A DNA stretch of 64,000 bases from Octopus sinensis (taxonomy: Eukaryota), in NCBI RefSeq assembly GCF_006345805.1, contig NC_043001.1, forward strand, positions 23,746,001 through 23,810,000, written 5' to 3'. Under the pieces are notes generated by a model, which worked only from the letters and a program-made list of their open reading frames with translations, made no database searches and was not told where the DNA came from. A program made the translations under genes and the position numbers. Positions 5,778 through 59,505 of this stretch are shown here, piece after piece (position 1 is the first letter of the stretch; each line of letters begins with the position of its first letter).

Positions 5778-6091
5778 TTTCGTTTTGGGATTTGGTTTGC
5801 AAGATTCTTTATATGAGTTCGTGTGTTGAAGCATATTCTGTTGTGTCTGTGGAGAGTCATTTTCTTTTTGTGCCTTATAATATAACGCACCCACCGGTAA
5901 AATTTCCGCTTATTTCCTATTTTTATTTTCCTAAAATTTTCGTTGCGTCTTGCAAACTATTGAAAAGGTTGTAAGACGCAACGAAAATTTTAGGAAAATA
6001 AAAATAACAAATAAGTGGAAATTTTACCGGTGGGTGTGTTATATTATAAGGCACAAAAAGAAAATGACTCTCTCCAGACACAACAGAATAT
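5778..6091. mobile_element. Fold-back non-coding element with degenerate hammerhead-like motif (Penelope-like pLTR/retrozyme-like)
   Basis: Arms 5833-5955 and 5969-6091; same family as 39210-40060. Confidence 0.7.
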
Positions 6092-6996: not shown

Positions 6997-7478
6997 CCTG
7001 TTTCTTTATTACCCGCAAGGGGTTAAACATAGAAGGGACAAACAAGGACAGACAAACGGATTAAGTCGATTATATCGACCCCAGTGTGTAACTGGTACTT
7101 ATTTAATCGACCCCGAAAGGATGAAAGGCGATGTCGACCTCGGCGAAATTTGAACCCGGAACGTAACGGCAAACGAAACACAACTAAGCATTTCACTCGG
7201 TGTGCTAACGTTTCTGCCAAATCGCCGCCTTAATAAATAAATAAAATACCTATTTCTTTATTACCCACAAGGGGCTAAACACAGAGGGGACAAACAAGGA
7301 CAGACATAGGTATTAAGTCGATTACATCGACCCCAGTGCGTAACTGCTACTTAATTTATCGACCCCGAAAGGATGAAAGGCAAAGTCGACCTCGGCGGAT
7401 TTTGAACTCACAACGTAACGCAGACGAAATACCGCTAAGCATTTCGCCCGGCGTGCTAATGTTTCTGCCAGCTCGCCT
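6997..7478 (-). mobile_element. Two adjacent complete SINE family A copies
   Basis: 6997-7230 and 7249-7478, each with its own head. Confidence 0.85.
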
Positions 7479-7949
7479 AAATAAAATACCGCAAAGCATT
7501 TTCTCCGGCATTCTAACATTCTGTGCCAATCCAGTAACAACTACAGCAACGACAACGACGACGATGATGATGACGGCATCAATGATGATGATGATAACAA
7601 GTGAAGCAGAATTCAGAGCACCATGACCAGCTTCAACTGCAGAAGACTTGTGGTGGTCAAGTTTATACATTGGGAAGCACCCAAAGCCGACGTAGAATGG
7701 AAACGTGGACCGAGTAAAGACCTAGCGGTGAATTAAGGTGAATAAAGACCTAGCGGTGAATTAAGAGCTCTGGACTGAAAACAGACACGGAAGGCCTGAT
7801 AATGTCTTTCTATACGGTTTTCGCTTGTTCTGATTCCGTTTTCTGTTCGTCAATTTTCTGTAGGCGTTCTATGGTTTGGTTTTGCTGTTTTCGTTACTTT
7901 ACTTTTCGCGTGTTTGATCTTTCTTGGTGGTTTATGTTCTCAATGTCAA

Positions 7950-14290: not shown

Positions 14291-14892
14291 ATTGATCTTC
14301 TGATCAGCGTAACTTGTACCTTTTAAAAGAAGCGAGAGAGCATACATCCGAATTTTTTCAAACTGTCAAATGGCAGCGAAACTCTGAATTTATGTAGGTG
14401 TTAGTCACTTCCATTCGAACGTTTAGAAACAGCTTCCATCCATTCTATTTCTGAGTGAGACTAACCATCCTGCTTTTCTTCATTTGGACGTTTGAACGTC
14501 AAGAACTTTAAGCGGGTCGAATTCTCAACGATGGAAACTACTGACACTCACGGACTTGCTTCTCCAGGAGCTGAACATCAGGTCCACCGATTTGTCCTTT
14601 GTTAATGCGTTCTTCTAACCACCGATATCCCTCTAGTTTGTTACCGATAAAAAGAGCTCTATACCATGACGGTCATCTCGTCCAAGTGATTCAGACACGG
14701 TCCTCCTGGGTTCCCTTCCGAATGAGAAACCCCACAACATCTGCAGCCTACGCAGCAACGGCTCATATACAGAAAAAAAATAAGACAGGGCGGTGGATTG
14801 GCAGAATCGTTAGAGAGTCGAGTGAGATACCTTGTGGTGTTTGTTTTGAGTCTTTTGACGGTTAAATTGAATGAGTCAACTAGTTTGATATA

Positions 14893-15376
14893 TATTTCTT
14901 TACTACCCACAAGGGGCTAAACACAGAGGGGACAAACAAGGACAGATAAACGGATTAAGTCGATTACATCGACCCCAGTGCGTAACTGGTACTTAATTTA
15001 TCGACCCCGAAAGGATGAAAGGCAAAGTCGACCTCGGCGGAATTTGAACCCAGAACGTAACGGCAGACGAAATATGGCTATGTATTTCGCCCGGCGTGCT
15101 AACTTTTCTGCCAGCTCGCCACCTTTGATATAATCCTCTGATATATATTTCTTTACTACCCACAAGGGGCTAAACATAGAAGGGACAAACAAGGACAGAC
15201 AAAGGGATTAAATCGACTACATCGACCCAGTGCGTAACTGGTACTCTATTTATCGACCCCGAGAGGATGTAAGGCAAAGTCGACCTCAGCGGAATTTGAA
15301 CTCAGAACGTAACGACAGACGAAATACCGCTAAGCATTTCACCCGGCGCGCTAACGTTTCTGCCAGCTCGCCGCCT
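14893..15376 (-). mobile_element. Two complete SINE family A copies at one site with reiterated flank
   Basis: Flank (t)ttgatataatcctctgat recurs between and after the copies. Confidence 0.85.
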
Positions 15377-15924
15377 TTGATATAATCCTCTGATATAATC
15401 CAGTTTGATATAATCCTCTGATCACTGCGTGGGTGGGTGGTACTTAGCGGAATTCATTCTATTGTAAATATTCAGACCACGTCTCCTGGCTGAGGATAAC
15501 TTTCTCCCTTCCTCCTACAAATCTTGGAGGTCCTGCACCCCACTCTAAAAGAAAAGCTACCCTGCAAAACAAAACAACTCCTCGCCTCCCCAAAACGGGT
15601 ACATGAGCGCTGACCTCCACTCTTCATGAAAACAGTAAAAAATAATTCGATAATTTACATGTATATTTACATTCTGTTCAGATTCGTCCATTCTCATCTC
15701 TTAATCTGTTCGTTTCTTCATCTGTTCATCTATTTATTTGCAAGCAGGTGTAGGCGTTGTTTTTCTTTAACACTAAGTCAGGCGTGACGAAGCGAATCCA
15801 TAATGAAAGGGTTGATAGATTTATCGAACTAATCTTCTTGTTTTTTCAGTCATAGTATATTTGATGTTACATTATCTAATCTTGCCTTGTGCCAAAATTT
15901 GAAACTAATGTTACATTATCAAAT

Positions 15925-16285: not shown

Positions 16286-17689
16286 TTTACATCATCTAAT
16301 GTATCGCCAGTCCCTTTGTAAGATGGTAGGACGTGATTCGAAATAAATTCTTGCGGGTCGAGTCATTTCATAGCGTCATTCGTGAAGAAATTTGGCCCAC
16401 AATGAAATTTGAAACAGCTGCTGACAAAGTTTCCAAAAAATAGTTAAATTCCCAAGACAACATTTTTATGTGAGCTACATACCTATGAATTAGTAATTTG
16501 TAAAAATTAAAAAAACCTTATTTCTTTGAGAAGCTACGAGGCCTTACAGGTTCTTATGCATTTTCAGCGTCTTTGGTACTAAGTAGGATCCTCACACCTG
16601 ATGTAGTGGTTCCTCATTTGTAGTTCCTTTGGTAATATTTAAACTAATGTTTTGTGAATTATTTCGTTTCAGGCATATCGGTCTCAAGCAGAAATAACGA
16701 GTTAATCGAAGAAATAATGAGTTAATAATTCTCTGAATAATTTTGTTATTTGAAGGATATTGCAATGAAAGCAAAAGACCATTAGTTACAAATGGTTGAC
16801 AGAAAAAGAATATTCACATATACAACACGTGACGACGTCTGGCGATATACGATTAAATGACAATAGAAACAAATTATTAGTTAGATTACACGTGAAAAAG
16901 AAACACGAGTGAATCTGAACAATCTGCTTGCAACTTCAAGCTAAAGCCAACTCATTAAAGTCTTCATCAAAATTGAGAACGTACACTCTATATAGAACGG
17001 TATCAGCTGCATCCAGCTTATAAACTGCACGAGAGGTTTTATTTTATTGTTATCAACAACAATGGCATAATTGTATTTATACTGAGAAAATAACACAACT
17101 AATAACGGATTTTAATAAAATCTCATCACTCTTAGCCTTTTCGTTGCAAAATCTCACCACCTCCTCTTCTCCTTATCCAATTTCTATTTCATATGATTAT
17201 TATTAGAATTTTTCTCAGCAGCTTTTAATCTTTCTCCACTTGGTTTTCTTAACAATTTTATCTTCACCATTGTAGATATCATTGCAATCATAGCTTTTAG
17301 CTAGGTATTTCATATACAATTTCCTTATGTCAAATATCCAACTGGTTTGTTTCACTTACCGGAGGCTTTTTTTTCCTCTGCTGTCGTTTCAAATTCCGAT
17401 TTGTTGAGATAGAATATAAAAAAAAAGTGAATGATATTATTCATAAAATAAAAACCAAACAAACAAATATTGTCCTTTAATTTTATTACAGAAAATGATT
17501 GGAGAAGTTTGTTATAAGGTATGGCTAAATGGCTAAGAAGTTCGCTGCGCAGCCACGAGTTTTCTCGATGTTCTACCGCATGACACTTTGATCAAGCTTC
17601 TCGACATTATCTTCAGATCTACTAAAGCTTTGTAGTAAAATTAATCCGTCGCTCGGTTTGACCCCCACCACCTGTCACTTCATATACCT

Positions 17690-18105
17690 CTTTCTTTATT
17701 ACCCACAAGGGCCTAAACATAGAGGGGACAAACAAGGACAGACAAACGGATTAAGTCGATTACATCGATCCCAGTGCGTAACTGGTACTTAATTTATCGA
17801 CCCCGAAAGGATGAAAGGCAAAGTCGACCTCGGCGGAATTTGAACTTAGAACGTAGCGGCAGATGAAATATCTACTTCTTTACTACTCACAATGGGATAA
17901 AGACAGAGAGGACAAACAAGGACAGACAAACGGATTAAGTCGATTATATCGATGTCAATGCGTAACTGGTACTTAATTTATCGACCCCGAAAGGATGAAA
18001 GGCAAAGTCGACCTCGGCGGAATTTGAACTCAGAACGTAACGGCAGACGAAACACAACTAAGCATTTCACCCGGCGTGCTAACGAATCTGCCAGCTCGCC
18101 GTCCT
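17690..18105 (-). mobile_element. SINE family A dimer (one head)
   Basis: Two ~180-bp units; imperfect TSD tgtc(c)acttcata(t/c)acc. Confidence 0.85.
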
Positions 18106-26119: not shown

Positions 26120-26529
26120 CGGCGAGCTGGCAGACACGTTAGCACGCCAGGCGAAATGCGTAGCCGTATTTCGTCTGTCATTACATTCTGAGTTCAAATT
26201 CCGCCGAGGTCAACTTTGCCTTTCATCCTTTCGGGGTCGATAAATTAAGTACCAGTTACGCACTGGGGTCGATATAGTCGACTTAATACCTCTGTCTGTC
26301 CTTGTTTGTCCCCTCTATGTTTAGCCCCTTGTGGGTAATAAAGAATTAGGTATTTCGTCTGTCGTTACGTTCTGAGTTCAAATTCCGCCGAGGTCGACTT
26401 TGCCTTTCATCCTTTCGGGGTAGATAAATAAAGTACCAGTTTCGCACTGGCGTCGATGTAATCGACTTAATCCCTATGTCTGTCCTTGTTTGTCCCTTCT
26501 ATGTTTATCCCCTTGTGGGTAATAAAGAA

Positions 26530-26531
<2 letters not shown>
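26120..26531 (+). mobile_element. SINE family A dimer between GATA/CTAT microsatellites
   Basis: One head, junction aagaattaggtatttcgtctg. Confidence 0.85.
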
Positions 26532-27274: not shown

Positions 27275-28250
27275 CTTTTATTCTTTTACTTGTTTCAGTC
27301 ATTTGACTGTGGCCATGCTGGAGCATCACCTTTAGTCGAACAAAATCGATCCCTGGACTTATTCTTTGCAAGCCTAATACTTATTTCATCGGTTCTTTTG
27401 CCGAACCGCTAAGTTACGGGAACGTAAACACATAGTATCGGTTGTCAAGCGATGGTGAGGGGACAAACGCAGACACACAAGTACATAGTCTCTCATTATG
27501 TGTTTACGTATTTTTCACTCGTTGGTGATGTTCCGTTCTTATTGTATCTTTTTGAAATTTGTCCTGTATTTATCCCTCGCGTGTTTACGTATTTCACACT
27601 CGTTGGTAATGTGTCGTACTTGATGTATTATATATATATATATATATAGATAGATAGATACACGACGGGCTTCTGTCAGTTTCCATCTACCAAATTCATT
27701 CACAAGGCTTTAGTCGACCCGAGGATATAGTAGAAGACTCGTATTTCTTTACTGCCCACAAGGGGCTACACACAGAGGGGACAGACAAGGACAGACAAAG
27801 GGATTAAGTCGATTATATCGACCCCAGTGCGTAACTGGTACTTAATTTATTGACCCCGAAAGGATGAAAGGCAAAGTCGACCTCGGCGGAATTCGAACTC
27901 AGAACGTAGCAGCAGACGAAATACCTATTTCTTTATTACCCACAAGGGGCTAAACACAGAAGGGACAAACAAAGACAGTCAAACGGATTAAGTCGATTAC
28001 ATCGACCCCAGTGCGAACTGGTACTTATTTAATCGACCCCGAAAGGATGAAAGGCAAAGTCGACCTCGGTGGAATTTGAACTCAGAACGTAATGACAGAC
28101 GAAATACTGCTAAGCATTTCGCCCGGCGTGCTAACGTTTCTACCAGCTCGCCGCCTTAGTAGAAGACTCTTGCCCAAGGTGTCGCACAGTGGGACTGAAC
28201 CCGGAACCATGTGGTTGGGAAGCAAGCTTCTTACCACACAACCAGTCCCA
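27275..28250 (-). mobile_element. SINE family C with a nested family A dimer (27742-28157)
   Basis: TSD-like tagtagaagactc on both sides of the nested dimer. Confidence 0.8.
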
Positions 28251-37937: not shown

Positions 37938-38324
37938 CTCTCTTACTTGTTTCAATCATTTGACTGCGGCCATGCTGGAGCACCGCCTTTAGTCGAGCAA
38001 ATCGACCCCGGGACTTATTCTTTGGAAGCCCAGTACTTATTCTATCGGTCTCTTTTGCCGAACCGCTAAGTGTCGGGGACATAAACACACCAGCATCGGT
38101 TGTCAAGCAATGCTAGGGGGACAAACACAGACACACAAACACACACATATATATATATACATATATACGACAGGCTTCTTTCAGTTTCCGTCTACCAAAT
38201 CCACTCCCAAGGCATTGGTCGGCCCGGAGCTATAGTAGAAGACACTTGCCCAAGATGCCACGCAGTGGGACAGAACCCGGAACCATGTGGTTGGTTAGCA
38301 AGTTACTTACTATACAGCCACTCC
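37938..38324 (-). mobile_element. SINE family C
   Basis: Homology to 24950-25314. Confidence 0.85.
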
Positions 38325-38917
38325 TATTTCTTTACTGCCCACAAGGGGCTACACACAGAGGGGACAAACAAGGACAGACAAACGGATTAAGTCGATTATA
38401 TCGATACCCAGTGCGTAACTGGTACTTATTTAATCGAACCCGAAAGGATGACAGGCGAAGTCGACCTCGGCGGAATTTGAACTCAGAACGTAGCGGCAGA
38501 CGAAATATGTTTCTTTACTACCCACAAGGGGCTAAACACAGAAGGGGACAAACAAGGACAGACAAACGGATTAAGTCGGATATATCGACCCCAGTGCGTA
38601 ACTGGTACTTATTTAATCGACCCCGAAAGGATGAAAGGCAAAGTCGACCTCGGCGGAATTTGAACTCAGAACGTAACGGCAGACGAAATATGTTTCTTTA
38701 TTACCCACAGGGGGCTAAACACAGAGGGGACAAACAAGGACAGACATACGTATTAAGTCGATTACATCGATCCCAGTGCGTAACTGGTACTTAATTTATC
38801 GACCCCGAAAGGATGAAAGGCAAAGTCGACCTCGGCGGAATTGAAAGATTTACGGCAGACGAAATACCGTTAAGCATTTCGCCCGACATGCTAACGTTTC
38901 TGCCAGCTCGCCGCCTT
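38325..38917 (-). mobile_element. SINE family A trimer
   Basis: One head and three ~180-bp units. Confidence 0.9.
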
Positions 38918-39209
38918 GAACAACAGAGAACGTTTCCGTCTACCAAATTCTCTCACAAGGCATGAGTCAGCTCAAGGACTTGAGGAAAAGAAGAGAATAC
39001 ACTTGGCACACAGTGCCACACAGTGGGACTGAAACCACAGAGCTGCGAAGCGAACTTCTTAACTATCTCACCATACCATACCATGTTCTAAATATCTATT
39101 ATTTGACTGTTTACCTTTGAATGACTACAAGACTTTTGAGATTAAAGAGTGATTTAAACAGTGACTAAACACCATAACACCATACCCATACAACACATAA
39201 TTCTATTTT

Positions 39210-40060
39210 TCGTTTTTGGATTTGATTTGCAAGATTCTTTATATAAGTTCGTGTGTTGAAGCATATTCTGTTGTGTCTGGGGAGAGTCATTTTTTTTTGT
39301 GTGCCTTATAATGTAACACACTCACCGGTAAAATTTCCACTTATCAAGGCGTCGAGCTGGCAGAATCGTTAGTACACCGGACGAAATGCTTAGCGGTATT
39401 TCGTCTGTCGCTACGTTCTGAGTTCAAATTCCGCCGAGGTCGACTTTGCCTTTCATCCTTTCGGGGTCGATTAAATAAGTACCAGTTACGCACTGGGGTC
39501 GATGTAATCGACTTAATACCTATGTCTGTCCTTGTTTGTCCCTTCTATGTTTAGCCCCTTGTGGGTAGTAAAGAAATAGGTATTTCGTCTGCCGCTACGT
39601 TCTTGAGTTCAAATTCTGCCGAGGTCGACTTTACCTTTCATCCTTTCGGGGTCGATAAATTAAGTACCAGTTACGCACTGGGGTCGATGTAATCGACTTA
39701 ATACCTATGTCTGTCCTTGTTTGTCCCTTCTATGTTTAGCCCCTTGTGGGTAATAAAGAAATGGGTATTTCGTCTGTCGCTACGTTCTGAGTTCAAATTC
39801 CGCCGAGGTCGACTTTGCCTTTCATCCTTTCGGGGTCGATTAAATAAGTACCAGTTACGCACTGGGGTCGATATAATCGACTTAATCCGTTTGTCCTTGT
39901 TTGTCCCTTCTGTGTTTAGCCCCTTTTGGGTAGTAAAGAAATAGGTAAAATTTCCACTTATTTCCTATTTTTATTTTCCTAAAATTTTCGTTGCGTCTTG
40001 CAACCTTTTCAGTAGTCTTGACTCCATAAGGCACAAAAAGAAAATGACTCTCCCCAGACA
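39210..40060 (-). mobile_element. Hammerhead-like element (5778-6091 family) interrupted by a SINE A trimer
   Basis: Same sequence as 5778-5955; minus strand ctaCTGAAAAggttgcaagacgcaacGAAAattttag; short inverted piece at 40026-40060. Confidence 0.7.
39345..39943 (+). mobile_element. SINE family A trimer with a single 18-bp TSD
   Basis: TSD ggtaaaatttccacttat at 39327-39344 and 39944-39961. Confidence 0.9.
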
Positions 40061-40403
40061 TAATTCTATTGTTCATTGAATTCTAGTGCGTATTTCACGT
40101 GCACTTTTGTCACACGAGCGTCACGTGTATTTGCCAATAAATACACGAGATTCTACCTCGTAAAACACCTTCAGCTGAATAAATTGGAGTTGATTAATAT
40201 ATTGCAGTCGTGTTCCTCCTTGTCTGGAGGGGTTGGTATCGGGGAGCGGATGGGAGATTTCATGACAGAATTACTGGATTGTGAAAGATTTACTGATTCC
40301 AGAAAGATGTAACGACAATTGCGTTGTGTGAATGGACCACAGTAATTGTAAAATTTCTCCTATGTTATTTGTTATTACATATTCAATGTCAAAAATTTGA
40401 CAT

Positions 40404-51130: not shown

Positions 51131-51726
51131 TATTTCTTTATTACCCACGAGGGGCTAAACATTGAGAGGACAAACAAGGACAGACACACGGATTAAGTCG
51201 ATTACATCGACCCCAGTGCGCAACTGGTACTTAATTTATCGACCCCGAAAGGATGAAAGGCAAAGTCGACCCCGGCAGAATTTGAACTCAGAACGTAGAC
51301 GAAATACCTATTTCTTTACTACCCACAAGGGGCTAAACACAGAGGGGACAAACAGATTAAGTCGATTATATCTACCCCAGTGCATAACTGGTACTTATTT
51401 AATCAACCCCGAAAGAATGAAAGGCAAAATCGACCTTGGCGGAATTTGAACTCAGAACGTAGCGGCAGACGAAATACCTATTTCTTTATTACCAACAAGG
51501 GGCTAAACATAGATGGGACAAACAAGGACAGACATAGGTATTAAGTCGATTCCATCGACCCCAGTGCGTAACTGGTACTTAATTTATCGACCCCGAAAGG
51601 ATGAAAGGCAAAGTCGACCTCGGCGGAATTTGAACTCACAGCGTAACGACAGACTTCAAATTCCGCCGAAGTCGACTTTGCCTTTCATCCTTTCGGCGTG
51701 CTAACGATTCTGCCTGCTCGCTGCCT
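51131..51726 (-). mobile_element. SINE family A trimer containing an internal 42-bp inverted duplication
   Basis: Three units; arms 51593-51634 / 51655-51696. Confidence 0.85.
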
Positions 51727-53378: not shown

Positions 53379-53983
53379 GTACCTATTTCTTTATTACCCA
53401 CAAGGGGCTACACACAGAGGGGACAAACAAGGACATACATGGGTATTAAGTCGATTACATCGACCCCAGTGCGTAACTGGTACTTAATTTATCGACCGCG
53501 AAAGGATGAAAGGCAAAGTCGACCTCGGCGGAATTTGAACTCAGAACGTAGCGGCAGACGAAATACCTATTTCTTTACTACCCACAAGGGGCTAAACACA
53601 GAGAGGTCAAACAAGGACAGACAAACGGATTAAGTCGATTATATCGACTCCAGTGTGTAACTAGTACTTATTTAATTGACCCCGAAAGGATGAAAGGCAA
53701 AGTCGACCTCGGCGGAATTTGAACTCAGAACGTAGCGGCAGACGAAATACCTATCTATTTACTACCCACAAGGGGCTAAACACAGAGAGGACAAACAAAG
53801 ACAGACATAGGTATTAAGTCGATTACATCGACCCCAGTGCGTAACTGGTACTTTATTTATCGACCCCGAAAGGATGAAAGGCAAAGTCGACCTCGGCGGA
53901 ATTTGAACTCAGAACGTAACGGCAGATGAAATACGGCTACGCATTTCGCCCGGTATGCTAACGTTTCTGCCAGTTCGCCGCTT
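53379..53983 (-). mobile_element. SINE family A trimer
   Basis: One head, three units; TSD atatccgaatata. Confidence 0.9.
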
Positions 53984-54467: not shown

Positions 54468-55065
54468 CAAAGCGGCGAGCTGGCAGAATCGTTAGCACGC
54501 CGGGCGAAATGCGCAGCCGTATTTCGTCTGCCGTTACGTTCTGAGTTCAAATTCCGCCGAGGTCGACTTTGCCTTTCATCCTTTCGAGATCGATTAAATA
54601 AGTACCAGTTATGCACTGGGCCGATGTAATCGACTTAATCCCTTGTTTGTCCCCTCTATGTTTAGCCCCCTGTGATAAATAAAGTACTAGTTACGCACTG
54701 GGGTCGATGTAATCGACTTAATCCGTTTTACTGTCCTTATTTGTCCTCTCTGTGTTTAGCCCCTTGTGGGTAGTAAAGAAATAGGTATTTCGTCCGCCGC
54801 TGCGTTCTGAGTTTAAATTCCGCCGAGGTCAACTTTGCCTTTCATCCTTTCGGGGTCTATAAATTAAGTACCAGTTGTTCACTGGTGTCGATATAATCGA
54901 CTTAATCCGTTTGTCTGTCCTTATTTGTCCTCTCTGTGTTTAGCCCCTTGTGGGTAGTAATGAAATAGGCTTTTCGTCTGCCGCTACGTTCTGAGTTCAA
55001 ATTCCGCTGAGGTCGACTTTGCCTTTCATCCCCAAATTTCAGGCCTTGTGCCTATAGTAGAAAGG
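54468..55065 (+). mobile_element. SINE family A multimer with alternative terminal tail
   Basis: 18-bp flanking duplication attattatgcacacaata (54450-54467/55066-55083). Confidence 0.85.
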
Positions 55066-56363: not shown

Positions 56364-56780
56364 AAGGTGGCGAGCTGGTAGAATCGTTAGCACTCCGGGC
56401 GAAATGCGTAGCCGTATTTCGTCTGCCGCTACGTTCTGAGTTCAAATTCCGCCGAGGTCGACTTTGCCTTTCATCCTTTCGGGGTCGATAAATTAAGTAC
56501 CAGTTACGCACTGGGGTCGATGTAATCGCCTTAATCCGTTTGTCTGTCCTTGTTTGTCCCCTCTATGTTTATCCCCTTGTGGGTAGTAAAGAAACAGAAT
56601 CATTAGCAGGTTGGGCAAAATGCTTCGCAGTATTTCGCTCAGTTCAGTTCTCAGTTCAAATTCTGCCGAGGTCGACTCTGTCTTTTATCCTTTCAGGGTC
56701 GATAAAATAACTACCACTCGAACACTGGGGTCGATGTAATCTCGAAATTGCTGGCCTTGTGCCAAATTTTGAAACGAATA
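56364..56780 (+). mobile_element. SINE family A copy followed by an older variant copy
   Basis: Homology to family A. Confidence 0.8.

Positions 56781-57799: not shown

Positions 57800-59505
<1,706 letters not shown>

What the first reader, a model, noticed from the sequence alone, without database searches (positions are those of the whole stretch)
39327..39961. SINE multimers: one head, ~180-bp units joined at the anticodon-like loop, one TSD
Seen in sequence: at least eight family A loci (17690, 26120, 27742, 38325, 39345, 51131, 53379, 54468) are dimers or trimers. The tail ...AAAGAAATA joins to GGTATTTCGTCTG (or a close variant), which is the 3' side of the anticodon-like arm (cgaaat-gcttagcggt-atttcg). 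The junction itself forms a GAAATA-GG-TATTTC mini-hairpin that mimics that arm. Whole multimers are bounded by a single TSD (18 bp here). Several copies end in AAAGAAA(T/C/G)AGGTA, a few bases into the next unit. Inference, competing mechanisms: rolling-circle reverse transcription of a ~180-nt circle made by anticodon-loop cleavage and ligation; RT template jumping guided by GAAATA/TATTTC pairing; self-targeted insertion; or simply a multimeric master copy.
Basis: partly seen in the sequence, partly recalled or inferred. Interest (0 to 1): 0.7.

Follow-up and report, generated by a model that had tools for sequence, protein, structure and literature searches.

The report
SINE that inserts into itself
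This three-unit repeat is one of tens of thousands of head-sharing multimers of a short jumping element, likely built mainly when new copies land at one fixed spot inside older copies and the array then likely grows by local duplication, not by rolling-circle copying.

Summary
Real and genome-wide: the trimer has an 18-bp target-site duplication (TSD), and the exact joint occurs 29,479 times. Correction: the terminal 'GGTA' is the start of the TSD; it is present upstream and at empty paralogous sites. Copies insert preferentially before GGT (29 of 87 ends, 1 expected), the motif at head position 48. Nested insertion into resident copies is seen directly at an antisense GGTA site (11 of 12 loci). 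Last units include older lineages and other SINE families; first units almost never do. Larger arrays show local duplication. The tail is shared with L1/Tx1-like LINEs that have family-specific targets. Best model (0.65): self-targeted retrotransposition with the 5' end likely resolved by annealing to the host head. Against it: only a weak host-TSD signal in dimers, and some headless multimers that point to whole-multimer copying. Rolling circle is not supported. Earlier scan notes on other pieces of this genome reached a similar reading. One-head SINE arrays are published for a clam; my searches found no fixed self-target. New variant of a known kind.

The parts
39327..39344 (+). Left copy of the 18-bp TSD; it begins with the GGTA target motif
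   Evidence: single copy at empty paralogous sites
39348..39394 (+). Single SINE head (unit positions 1-47) with an A-box-like motif at about 39358-39369; preceded by 3 extra bases
   Evidence: box assignment from recalled Pol III consensus; ARAGORN and Rfam give no tRNA hit
39378..39407 (+). 13-bp hairpin of the head; position 48 (39395), the joint/target site, is the first base of its 3' arm
   Evidence: z -3.41
39395..39578 (+). Unit 1: B-box-like motif 39420-39432, core and tail; identical to unit 3 over positions 48-156 and to unit 2 over 129-220
39514..39578 (+). Tail A of unit 1, shared with the 3' end of L1/Tx1-like LINEs
39579..39763 (+). Unit 2 (headless, starts at position 48)
39764..39943 (+). 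Unit 3 (headless, 4-bp deletion in the tail); likely the original resident body
   Evidence: host role inferred
39944..39961 (+).
39200..39326 (.). Left arm of the high-copy foldback repeat that hosts the trimer (right arm about 39962-40070; bounds approximate)
17687..18101 (-). Dimer with TSD
26120..26531 (+). Dimer in a (TATC)n tract
27742..28155 (-). Dimer with TSD
38323..38915 (-). Trimer with a variant joint lacking GG; TSD not found
51131..51720 (-). Trimer
53382..53981 (-). Trimer with a 19-bp TSD starting GGTA
54472..55031 (+). Composite multimer ending in a different SINE family's tail
56366..56741 (+). Copy joined at the second site (position 14-15) to an old B1-type SINE
7249..7523 (-). 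Full copy inserted at the GGTATTT site of a related, truncated head, with a visible 12-13-bp TSD
58144..59078 (+). 3' fragment of an L1/Tx1-like LINE followed by a tail-A-like stretch at 59049-59078

Best explanation
The multimers likely form mainly in place: a new SINE copy likely inserts, using L1/Tx1-like LINE enzymes, just before GGTA at position 48 of a resident copy, and arrays of three or more units then likely grow further by local duplication. Shown: the fixed joint, the GGT target preference, nested insertion into resident copies at an antisense GGTA site, position-dependent unit types, the duplication signature and the tail shared with LINEs. Inferred: the new DNA strand anneals to the homologous host head, as proposed for R2 5' junctions, so no second head or internal TSD is left and both promoter and target are rebuilt for the next round. 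Inferred: the partner endonuclease chooses the site, helped by pairing of the RNA's read-through 3' end; the element has no T4 terminator. A minority of loci likely arise by copying whole multimer RNAs. At the focal locus, unit 3 is likely the resident body, and the three units are a mosaic not explained by one template.
For: Target: 29 of 87 terminal tails in unbiased sequence are followed by GGT, 1.0 expected. TSDs were found at 62 of 120 loci vs 3 of 596 mismatched pairs. The TSD starts exactly at the element end in 52 of 103 loci.

Direct nesting: 746 exact joints to an antisense GGTA site inside the SINE; 11 of 12 fetched loci show the host on at least the 3' side, and all 12 inserts are single units. 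In 3 of 547 loci a head fragment precedes a full copy.

Position effects: variant C219 is in 1 of 53 first units, 23 of 53 last units and 20 of 108 monomers. The last unit is more diverged than the first in 34 vs 10 of 53 loci, p=0.0014. Hosts with an intact site are hit more: B2 8 of 14, A 24 of 80, old B types 4 of 62. L139:7751 shares 8 uncommon variants between its first unit and its B-type last unit.

Duplication: in 45 arrays of 3-5 units, the last two units share variants mainly in positions 50-80, and the first two mainly in 101-229, both above shuffles.

Partner: the tail aligns to the 3' end of a 1137-aa APE-endonuclease/RT/zf-RVT ORF. 17 of 20 LINE ends score 39-67.5 vs a shuffled maximum of 33.5, and LINE subfamilies have distinct fixed 3' flanks. 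One LINE copy is joined at the position-48 site (L101).

Lineage link: T219 goes with GGT ends (82 of 86) and position-48 joints (274 of 279); C219 goes with AGA ends (18 of 23) and position-15 joints (19 of 25).
Against: Dimers show only a weak host-TSD signature. Site 61 is shared in 9 of 24 vs 8 of 37, p=0.24; it is seen in B-ending dimers but not in A-ending ones. The 5' resolution step therefore has to overwrite host sequence in most cases, and some old-B arrays carry young A-type heads.

The age polarity weakens to 29 vs 18, p=0.11, with variants under 2% frequency, and is not significant within the T219/GGT lineage. An earlier unpaired comparison showed none.

8 of 143 multimers start beyond position 55, against 17 of 125 monomers; one has an apparent TSD read by eye (L276). 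These fit whole-RNA copying.

Heads with C at 48 are followed by GG joints in 14 of 14. No sampled LINE end is followed by GGTA, so the true partner family was not found. The downstream-vs-upstream test for RNA-encoded letters was not significant overall (11 vs 7). Many loci were chosen by joint or BLAST match, not at random.
Confidence: 0.65

Rival explanations
1. Multimers arise mainly at the RNA/cDNA level, by template switching between SINE RNAs or copying of read-through multimer RNAs, and insert whole at new sites.
For: One outer TSD, also in 22 of 59 B-ending arrays (null 6 of 287). Headless multimers exist, 8 of 143. Host-TSD signal is weak. Linkage between variants decays within about 30 bp. 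There is no T4 run in the unit.
Against: All 12 antisense inserts and 25 of 28 GGTA-ended copies are single units. Old, privately mutated B copies occur only as last units. First and last units are not co-inherited across loci (odds ratio 1.07), but this test has low power: the monomer control gave 1.9, p=0.17.
Confidence: 0.2
2. Within the in-place model, the target is set mainly by the RNA's own read-through 3' end, so the target preference is inherited from the mother locus.
For: Three target classes (GGT, AGA, TAT) track tail lineages. About 4 loci carry guide-like letters only on the downstream side (L124, L132, L072, L219). Joints per available site are about 118 times higher at the sense site than at the antisense GGTA site; this is an upper bound. 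TATTT is a moderate Pol III terminator in mammalian cells (PMC8466645 passages). Precedent for RNA-target pairing in SART1/R1Bm (PMC7265360 passages).
Against: Tx1-like families here have their own fixed targets, so a switch of partner explains the same linkage. Matches at non-SINE sites fade after about 4 bases. The overall asymmetry was not significant.
Confidence: 0.3
3. Arrays come only from DNA-level unequal exchange or slippage of one ancestral dimer type.
For: Duplication signature in arrays of three or more units; long arrays are homogeneous; alternating two-unit patterns in L016 and L025.
Against: Dimer units are mostly unrelated (only 1 of 19 pairs is below the 5th percentile of between-locus distance). 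A-to-B composites, a second joint and antisense nesting need insertion events.
Confidence: 0.07
4. Rolling-circle reverse transcription of an approximately 184-nt circle made by anticodon-loop cleavage and ligation.
For: Precise register: 279 of 317 tail joints are at position 46-53, next to a hairpin loop.
Against: Units within loci differ at haplotype sites. Foreign tails end arrays. There is a second joint at position 15. No hammerhead core was found and Rfam gave no hit. No circularly permuted class was noticed in the parses.
Confidence: 0.03

Closest known systems
TSD1-(SINE)n-TSD1 arrays of the blood clam Scapharca broughtonii (PMC11481361; section 15 and passages read, figure not seen)
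   Same: One complete head, repeated head-truncated units and one outer TSD.
   Different: There the internal units are also tail-truncated, about 3% of copies are in tandem or palindromic structures, and unequal recombination between TSDs is suggested. Here tails are complete, 16 of 43 loci are multimers, and the joint is an insertion target.
SINEU mobilised by Tx1-Mar in crocodilians (PMC4494074; passages and section 16 read)
   Same: A SINE with a target preference for another repeat, likely borrowed from Tx1-type LINEs; sequential tandem insertions.
   Different: The target there is a Mariner transposon and tandem copies sandwich a TSD. Here the target is the SINE's own head and no internal TSD or second head remains.
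SINE-derived satellites of squamates (PMC10702118; abstract and Discussion read)
   Same: Tandem repeats of part of a SINE with a longer terminal unit; long arrays are more homogeneous.
   Different: There the seed is attributed mainly to duplication or recombination. Here the seed is likely targeted retrotransposition at tens of thousands of dispersed loci.
R2 5' junction by cDNA-target heteroduplex (PMC3774820; abstract and passages read)
   Same: Homology between new DNA and upstream target is proposed to give precise, seamless 5' joints.
   Different: R2 is autonomous and rDNA-specific and uses a ribozyme; here the homology is the element's own head.
Head-to-tail B2/Dip/Ves multimers of mammals (PMC8466645; passages read)
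   Same: Up to about half of copies lie in multimers.
   Different: Those are described as head-to-tail tandems (of full-length units per PMC10702118), origin left open; here units lack the first 47 bases.
Metazoan retrozymes (search listing only; features recalled)
   Same: Short tandem units of similar size.
   Different: No hammerhead core here, a Pol III-type head, a LINE-derived tail and heterogeneous units.

Membership tests
tRNA-derived SINE | Short, non-coding, high-copy interspersed repeat with TSDs | tested here: met
   231 bp; 107,499 tail motifs; TSDs at 62 of 120 loci vs 3 of 596
tRNA-derived SINE | tRNA-related head with A and B boxes | tested here: inconclusive
   Box-like motifs seen by eye against a recalled consensus; ARAGORN and Rfam found nothing
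tRNA-derived SINE | 3' tail shared with a LINE | tested here: met
tRNA-derived SINE | Pol III transcription | not testable with these tools
   Only assembled contigs of RNA runs were offered
Deu/Nin-domain SINEs; octopus OK/OR1/OR2 | Alignment to the published central domain or consensus | not tested
   Resemblance is recalled only; no reference sequence was fetched
Tx1-clade partner LINE | APE endonuclease + RT + C-terminal zinc finger, L1-like | tested here: met
   Pfam PF03372, PF00078, PF13966; best PDB hit L1 ORF2p, E 2.5e-65
Tx1-clade partner LINE | Placement inside Tx1 by RT phylogeny | not tested
   The Tx1 label rests on domain layout, fixed targets and recall
Tx1-clade partner LINE | Same target as the SINE | tested here: inconclusive
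   0 of 20 sampled LINE ends are followed by GGTA; one other LINE copy is joined at the position-48 site; one search was uninformative
Retrozyme / rolling-circle element | Self-cleaving ribozyme in each unit | tested here: not met
   No CTGANGA on either strand of the unit circle; no Rfam hit; undescribed ribozymes are not excluded
Retrozyme / rolling-circle element | Units of one locus copied from one template | tested here: not met
Retrozyme / rolling-circle element | Circular RNA in vivo | not testable with these tools
   Needs RNase R or divergent RT-PCR
SINE-derived satellite | Tandem SINE part with homogenised long arrays | tested here: met
   L050 (16 units) and L257 (9 units); within-array distance about 0.04 vs 0.09 between loci; applies to long arrays only
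True dimeric SINE (Alu-like fixed master) | Fixed unit number and co-inherited left and right arms | tested here: not met
   1 to 16 units; no co-inheritance seen, in a low-power test

The most novel reading that the evidence does not exclude
The SINE carries a heritable target memory: lacking a terminator, its RNA reads into its own insertion site, and those few bases steer daughters to like sites. Lineages that landed in their own head became a self-homing loop that rebuilds promoter and target at each round and seeds tens of thousands of proto-satellites.
Probability: 0.3. Interest if true: 0.75.

Novelty: new variant of a known kind. Interest (0 to 1): 0.5.

Why it matters
It offers a concrete route from a dispersed SINE to tandem arrays, a link that the squamate and clam papers describe without a tested seed mechanism. 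It makes a standing question testable in one family: whether a SINE's target comes from its LINE partner's endonuclease or from its own RNA end. In practice, single-TSD multimers here are likely not single events, so copy counts, age estimates and consensus libraries for a large SINE fraction of this genome would be biased.

Tried and rejected
Rfam and ARAGORN found no family. The Pfam RT search plus 20 chromosomal LINEs returned elements that looked RTE-like or CR1-like by their 3' ends and had no tail match; the partner was found later through tail-only hits. A protein search with the LINE C-terminal fragment found nothing.

Read laying could not count units or show LINE targets; small-share RNA runs were not used. 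Tests of head type against tail were mostly null. Multimer frequency did not differ clearly by target class (GGT 9 of 29, TAT 5 of 21, AGA 2 of 10). There was no clear A-to-G excess suggesting RNA editing (13.9 vs 10.2 per 1000).

Literature: searches returned 0 papers. Listings showed no report of this self-target; only titles and abstract starts were seen for unread papers. Subscription journals and Repbase/Dfam were not searchable. Anzai 2005 was not held. No supplements were opened; SINE consensus files there may name this family.

Rows left out: duplicate and contig-edge loci, arrays over 5 units in paired tests, and GGTA-selected or antisense-selected loci in the target statistics where stated.

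Full report
Observation. The window holds a trimer at 39348-39943: one head, three units of 180-185 bp starting at unit position 48, and an 18-bp TSD. The genome (G000, 2.72 Gb; likely an octopus, from recalled SINE resemblance and an earlier scan note, not tested) has 29,479 exact joint 25-mers among 107,499 tail 14-mers. In 710 kb of fixed-grid samples, 16 of 43 tail-A loci are multimers. Across all 547 de-duplicated loci, tail joints fall at position 46-53 in 279 cases, at 13-17 in 27, and elsewhere in 11.

The GGTA end is target DNA. At the focal locus the flank is a high-copy foldback repeat; 17 other matches in the fetched DNA carry the TSD sequence once, most continuing into the downstream flank. 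TSDs start exactly at the element end in 52 of 103 loci. In unbiased sequence, 29 of 87 terminal tails are followed by GGT (1.0 expected), 21 by TAT (3.2 expected) and 10 by AGA (1.7 expected). GGTA and AGAA are also the letters at head positions 48 and 15, the two joints. The target class tracks a tail variant: T219 goes with GGT ends and position-48 joints, C219 with AGA ends and position-15 joints (p about 1e-12 and 1e-20).

Copies insert into resident copies. A GGTA on the SINE's opposite strand receives 746 exact joints. In 11 of 12 fetched cases the host is visible next to the insert, and all 12 inserts are single units. Window 7249-7523 shows a copy at the GGTATTT site of a related head with its TSD. 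Many arrays end in another SINE family's tail. Types with an intact site are converted often (B2 8 of 14, A 24 of 80) and old types that mostly lack it rarely (4 of 62). C219 occurs in 1 of 53 first units but 23 of 53 last units. Last units are more diverged than first units (34 vs 10), but with only very rare variants the trend is not significant (29 vs 18), so part of the signal is lineage composition.

Growth beyond two units. In 45 arrays of 3-5 units, the last two units share variants mostly near the unit start and the first two mostly in the 3' part, as expected from duplication with a crossover inside the unit. Long arrays (16 units in L050, 9 in L257) exist, and units in arrays of more than six are homogeneous. 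The focal units form a mosaic: unit 1 equals unit 3 over positions 48-156 and unit 2 over 129-220. This fits host-templated 5' resolution followed by a further insertion or exchange, but it does not prove one history.

What does not fit simply. If the host's duplicated target were kept, first and last units should share positions 48-62. That signal is weak and appears only in B-ending dimers, and some old-B arrays have young heads. The model therefore needs the new strand to anneal within the host head and overwrite it, as proposed for R2 (PMC3774820, passages). 8 of 143 multimers lack the head region, against 17 of 125 monomers, so whole-multimer RNAs are probably copied at times. A test for co-inherited arms was null but weak.

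Partner. Tail-only hits led to a multicopy ORF. A 1137-aa copy has APE endonuclease, RT and zf-RVT domains and is L1-like. Its 3' UTR matches tail positions 174-203 at 29 of 30 bases, and 17 of 20 further LINE ends align to the tail above all shuffles. LINE subfamilies have their own fixed 3' flanks, in line with the target preference reported for many Tx1 elements (PMC4494074, passages). None of the 20 is followed by GGTA, but one other LINE copy sits at the position-48 site (L101). Whether protein or RNA picks the site is therefore open. The unit has no T4 run, and about four loci carry guide-like letters only on the downstream side, but the overall test was not significant.

Rejected. Rolling circle: dimer units are nearly as different as unrelated copies, no hammerhead core was found, and arrays end in foreign tails. 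Hairpin stalling: no excess of 5' ends at position 48, and the joint hairpin is no more stable than shuffles.

Comparison and verdict. One-head SINE arrays in one TSD are described in a clam (PMC11481361), SINE-derived satellites in squamates (PMC10702118), and Tx1-borrowed targeting in SINEU (PMC4494074). My searches listed no report of a SINE with a fixed target in its own head, within the limits of that library. Three unreviewed scan notes on other pieces of this genome reached a similar reading; they are not independent support, and the tests above were run here. Verdict: real, a new variant of a known kind, interest 0.5.

Noticed in passing
L302, L306, L308, L310 (G000 LINE 3' ends): Four L1/Tx1-like LINE copies end just upstream of the same short motif, suggesting a site-specific family that targets another repeat.
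   Followed up: no
L311, L312, L313; L294-L300; window 57904: Other LINE subfamilies with the shared tail have their own fixed 3' flanks: AGTTAG-like, TCT-like, or (TATC)n tracts.
   Followed up: partly
window 14886-15397: Two full SINE copies separated by a repeated TSD-like stretch, a second array type also described in the clam paper.
   Followed up: no
window about 39200-40070, also 5913-6011: A high-copy foldback repeat of unknown class hosts the trimer.
   Followed up: partly
L153:1099-1857: An array whose joints carry telomere-like TTAGGG letters right after GGTATT.
   Followed up: no
L137:8361: A third joint type, at unit position 154, repeated twice in one array.
   Followed up: no
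all tail-A units sampled: Linkage between polymorphic sites decays from r2 0.94 at 4 bp to about 0.1 by 30 bp, suggesting heavy recombination or conversion among copies.
   Followed up: partly
L194:2426-4118: An RTE-like LINE fragment appears inserted into a SINE tail.
   Followed up: no
G000 small unplaced contigs (L161-L190): The best RT-domain hits are many equal-scoring matches on unplaced contigs, possibly foreign DNA; not examined.
   Followed up: no
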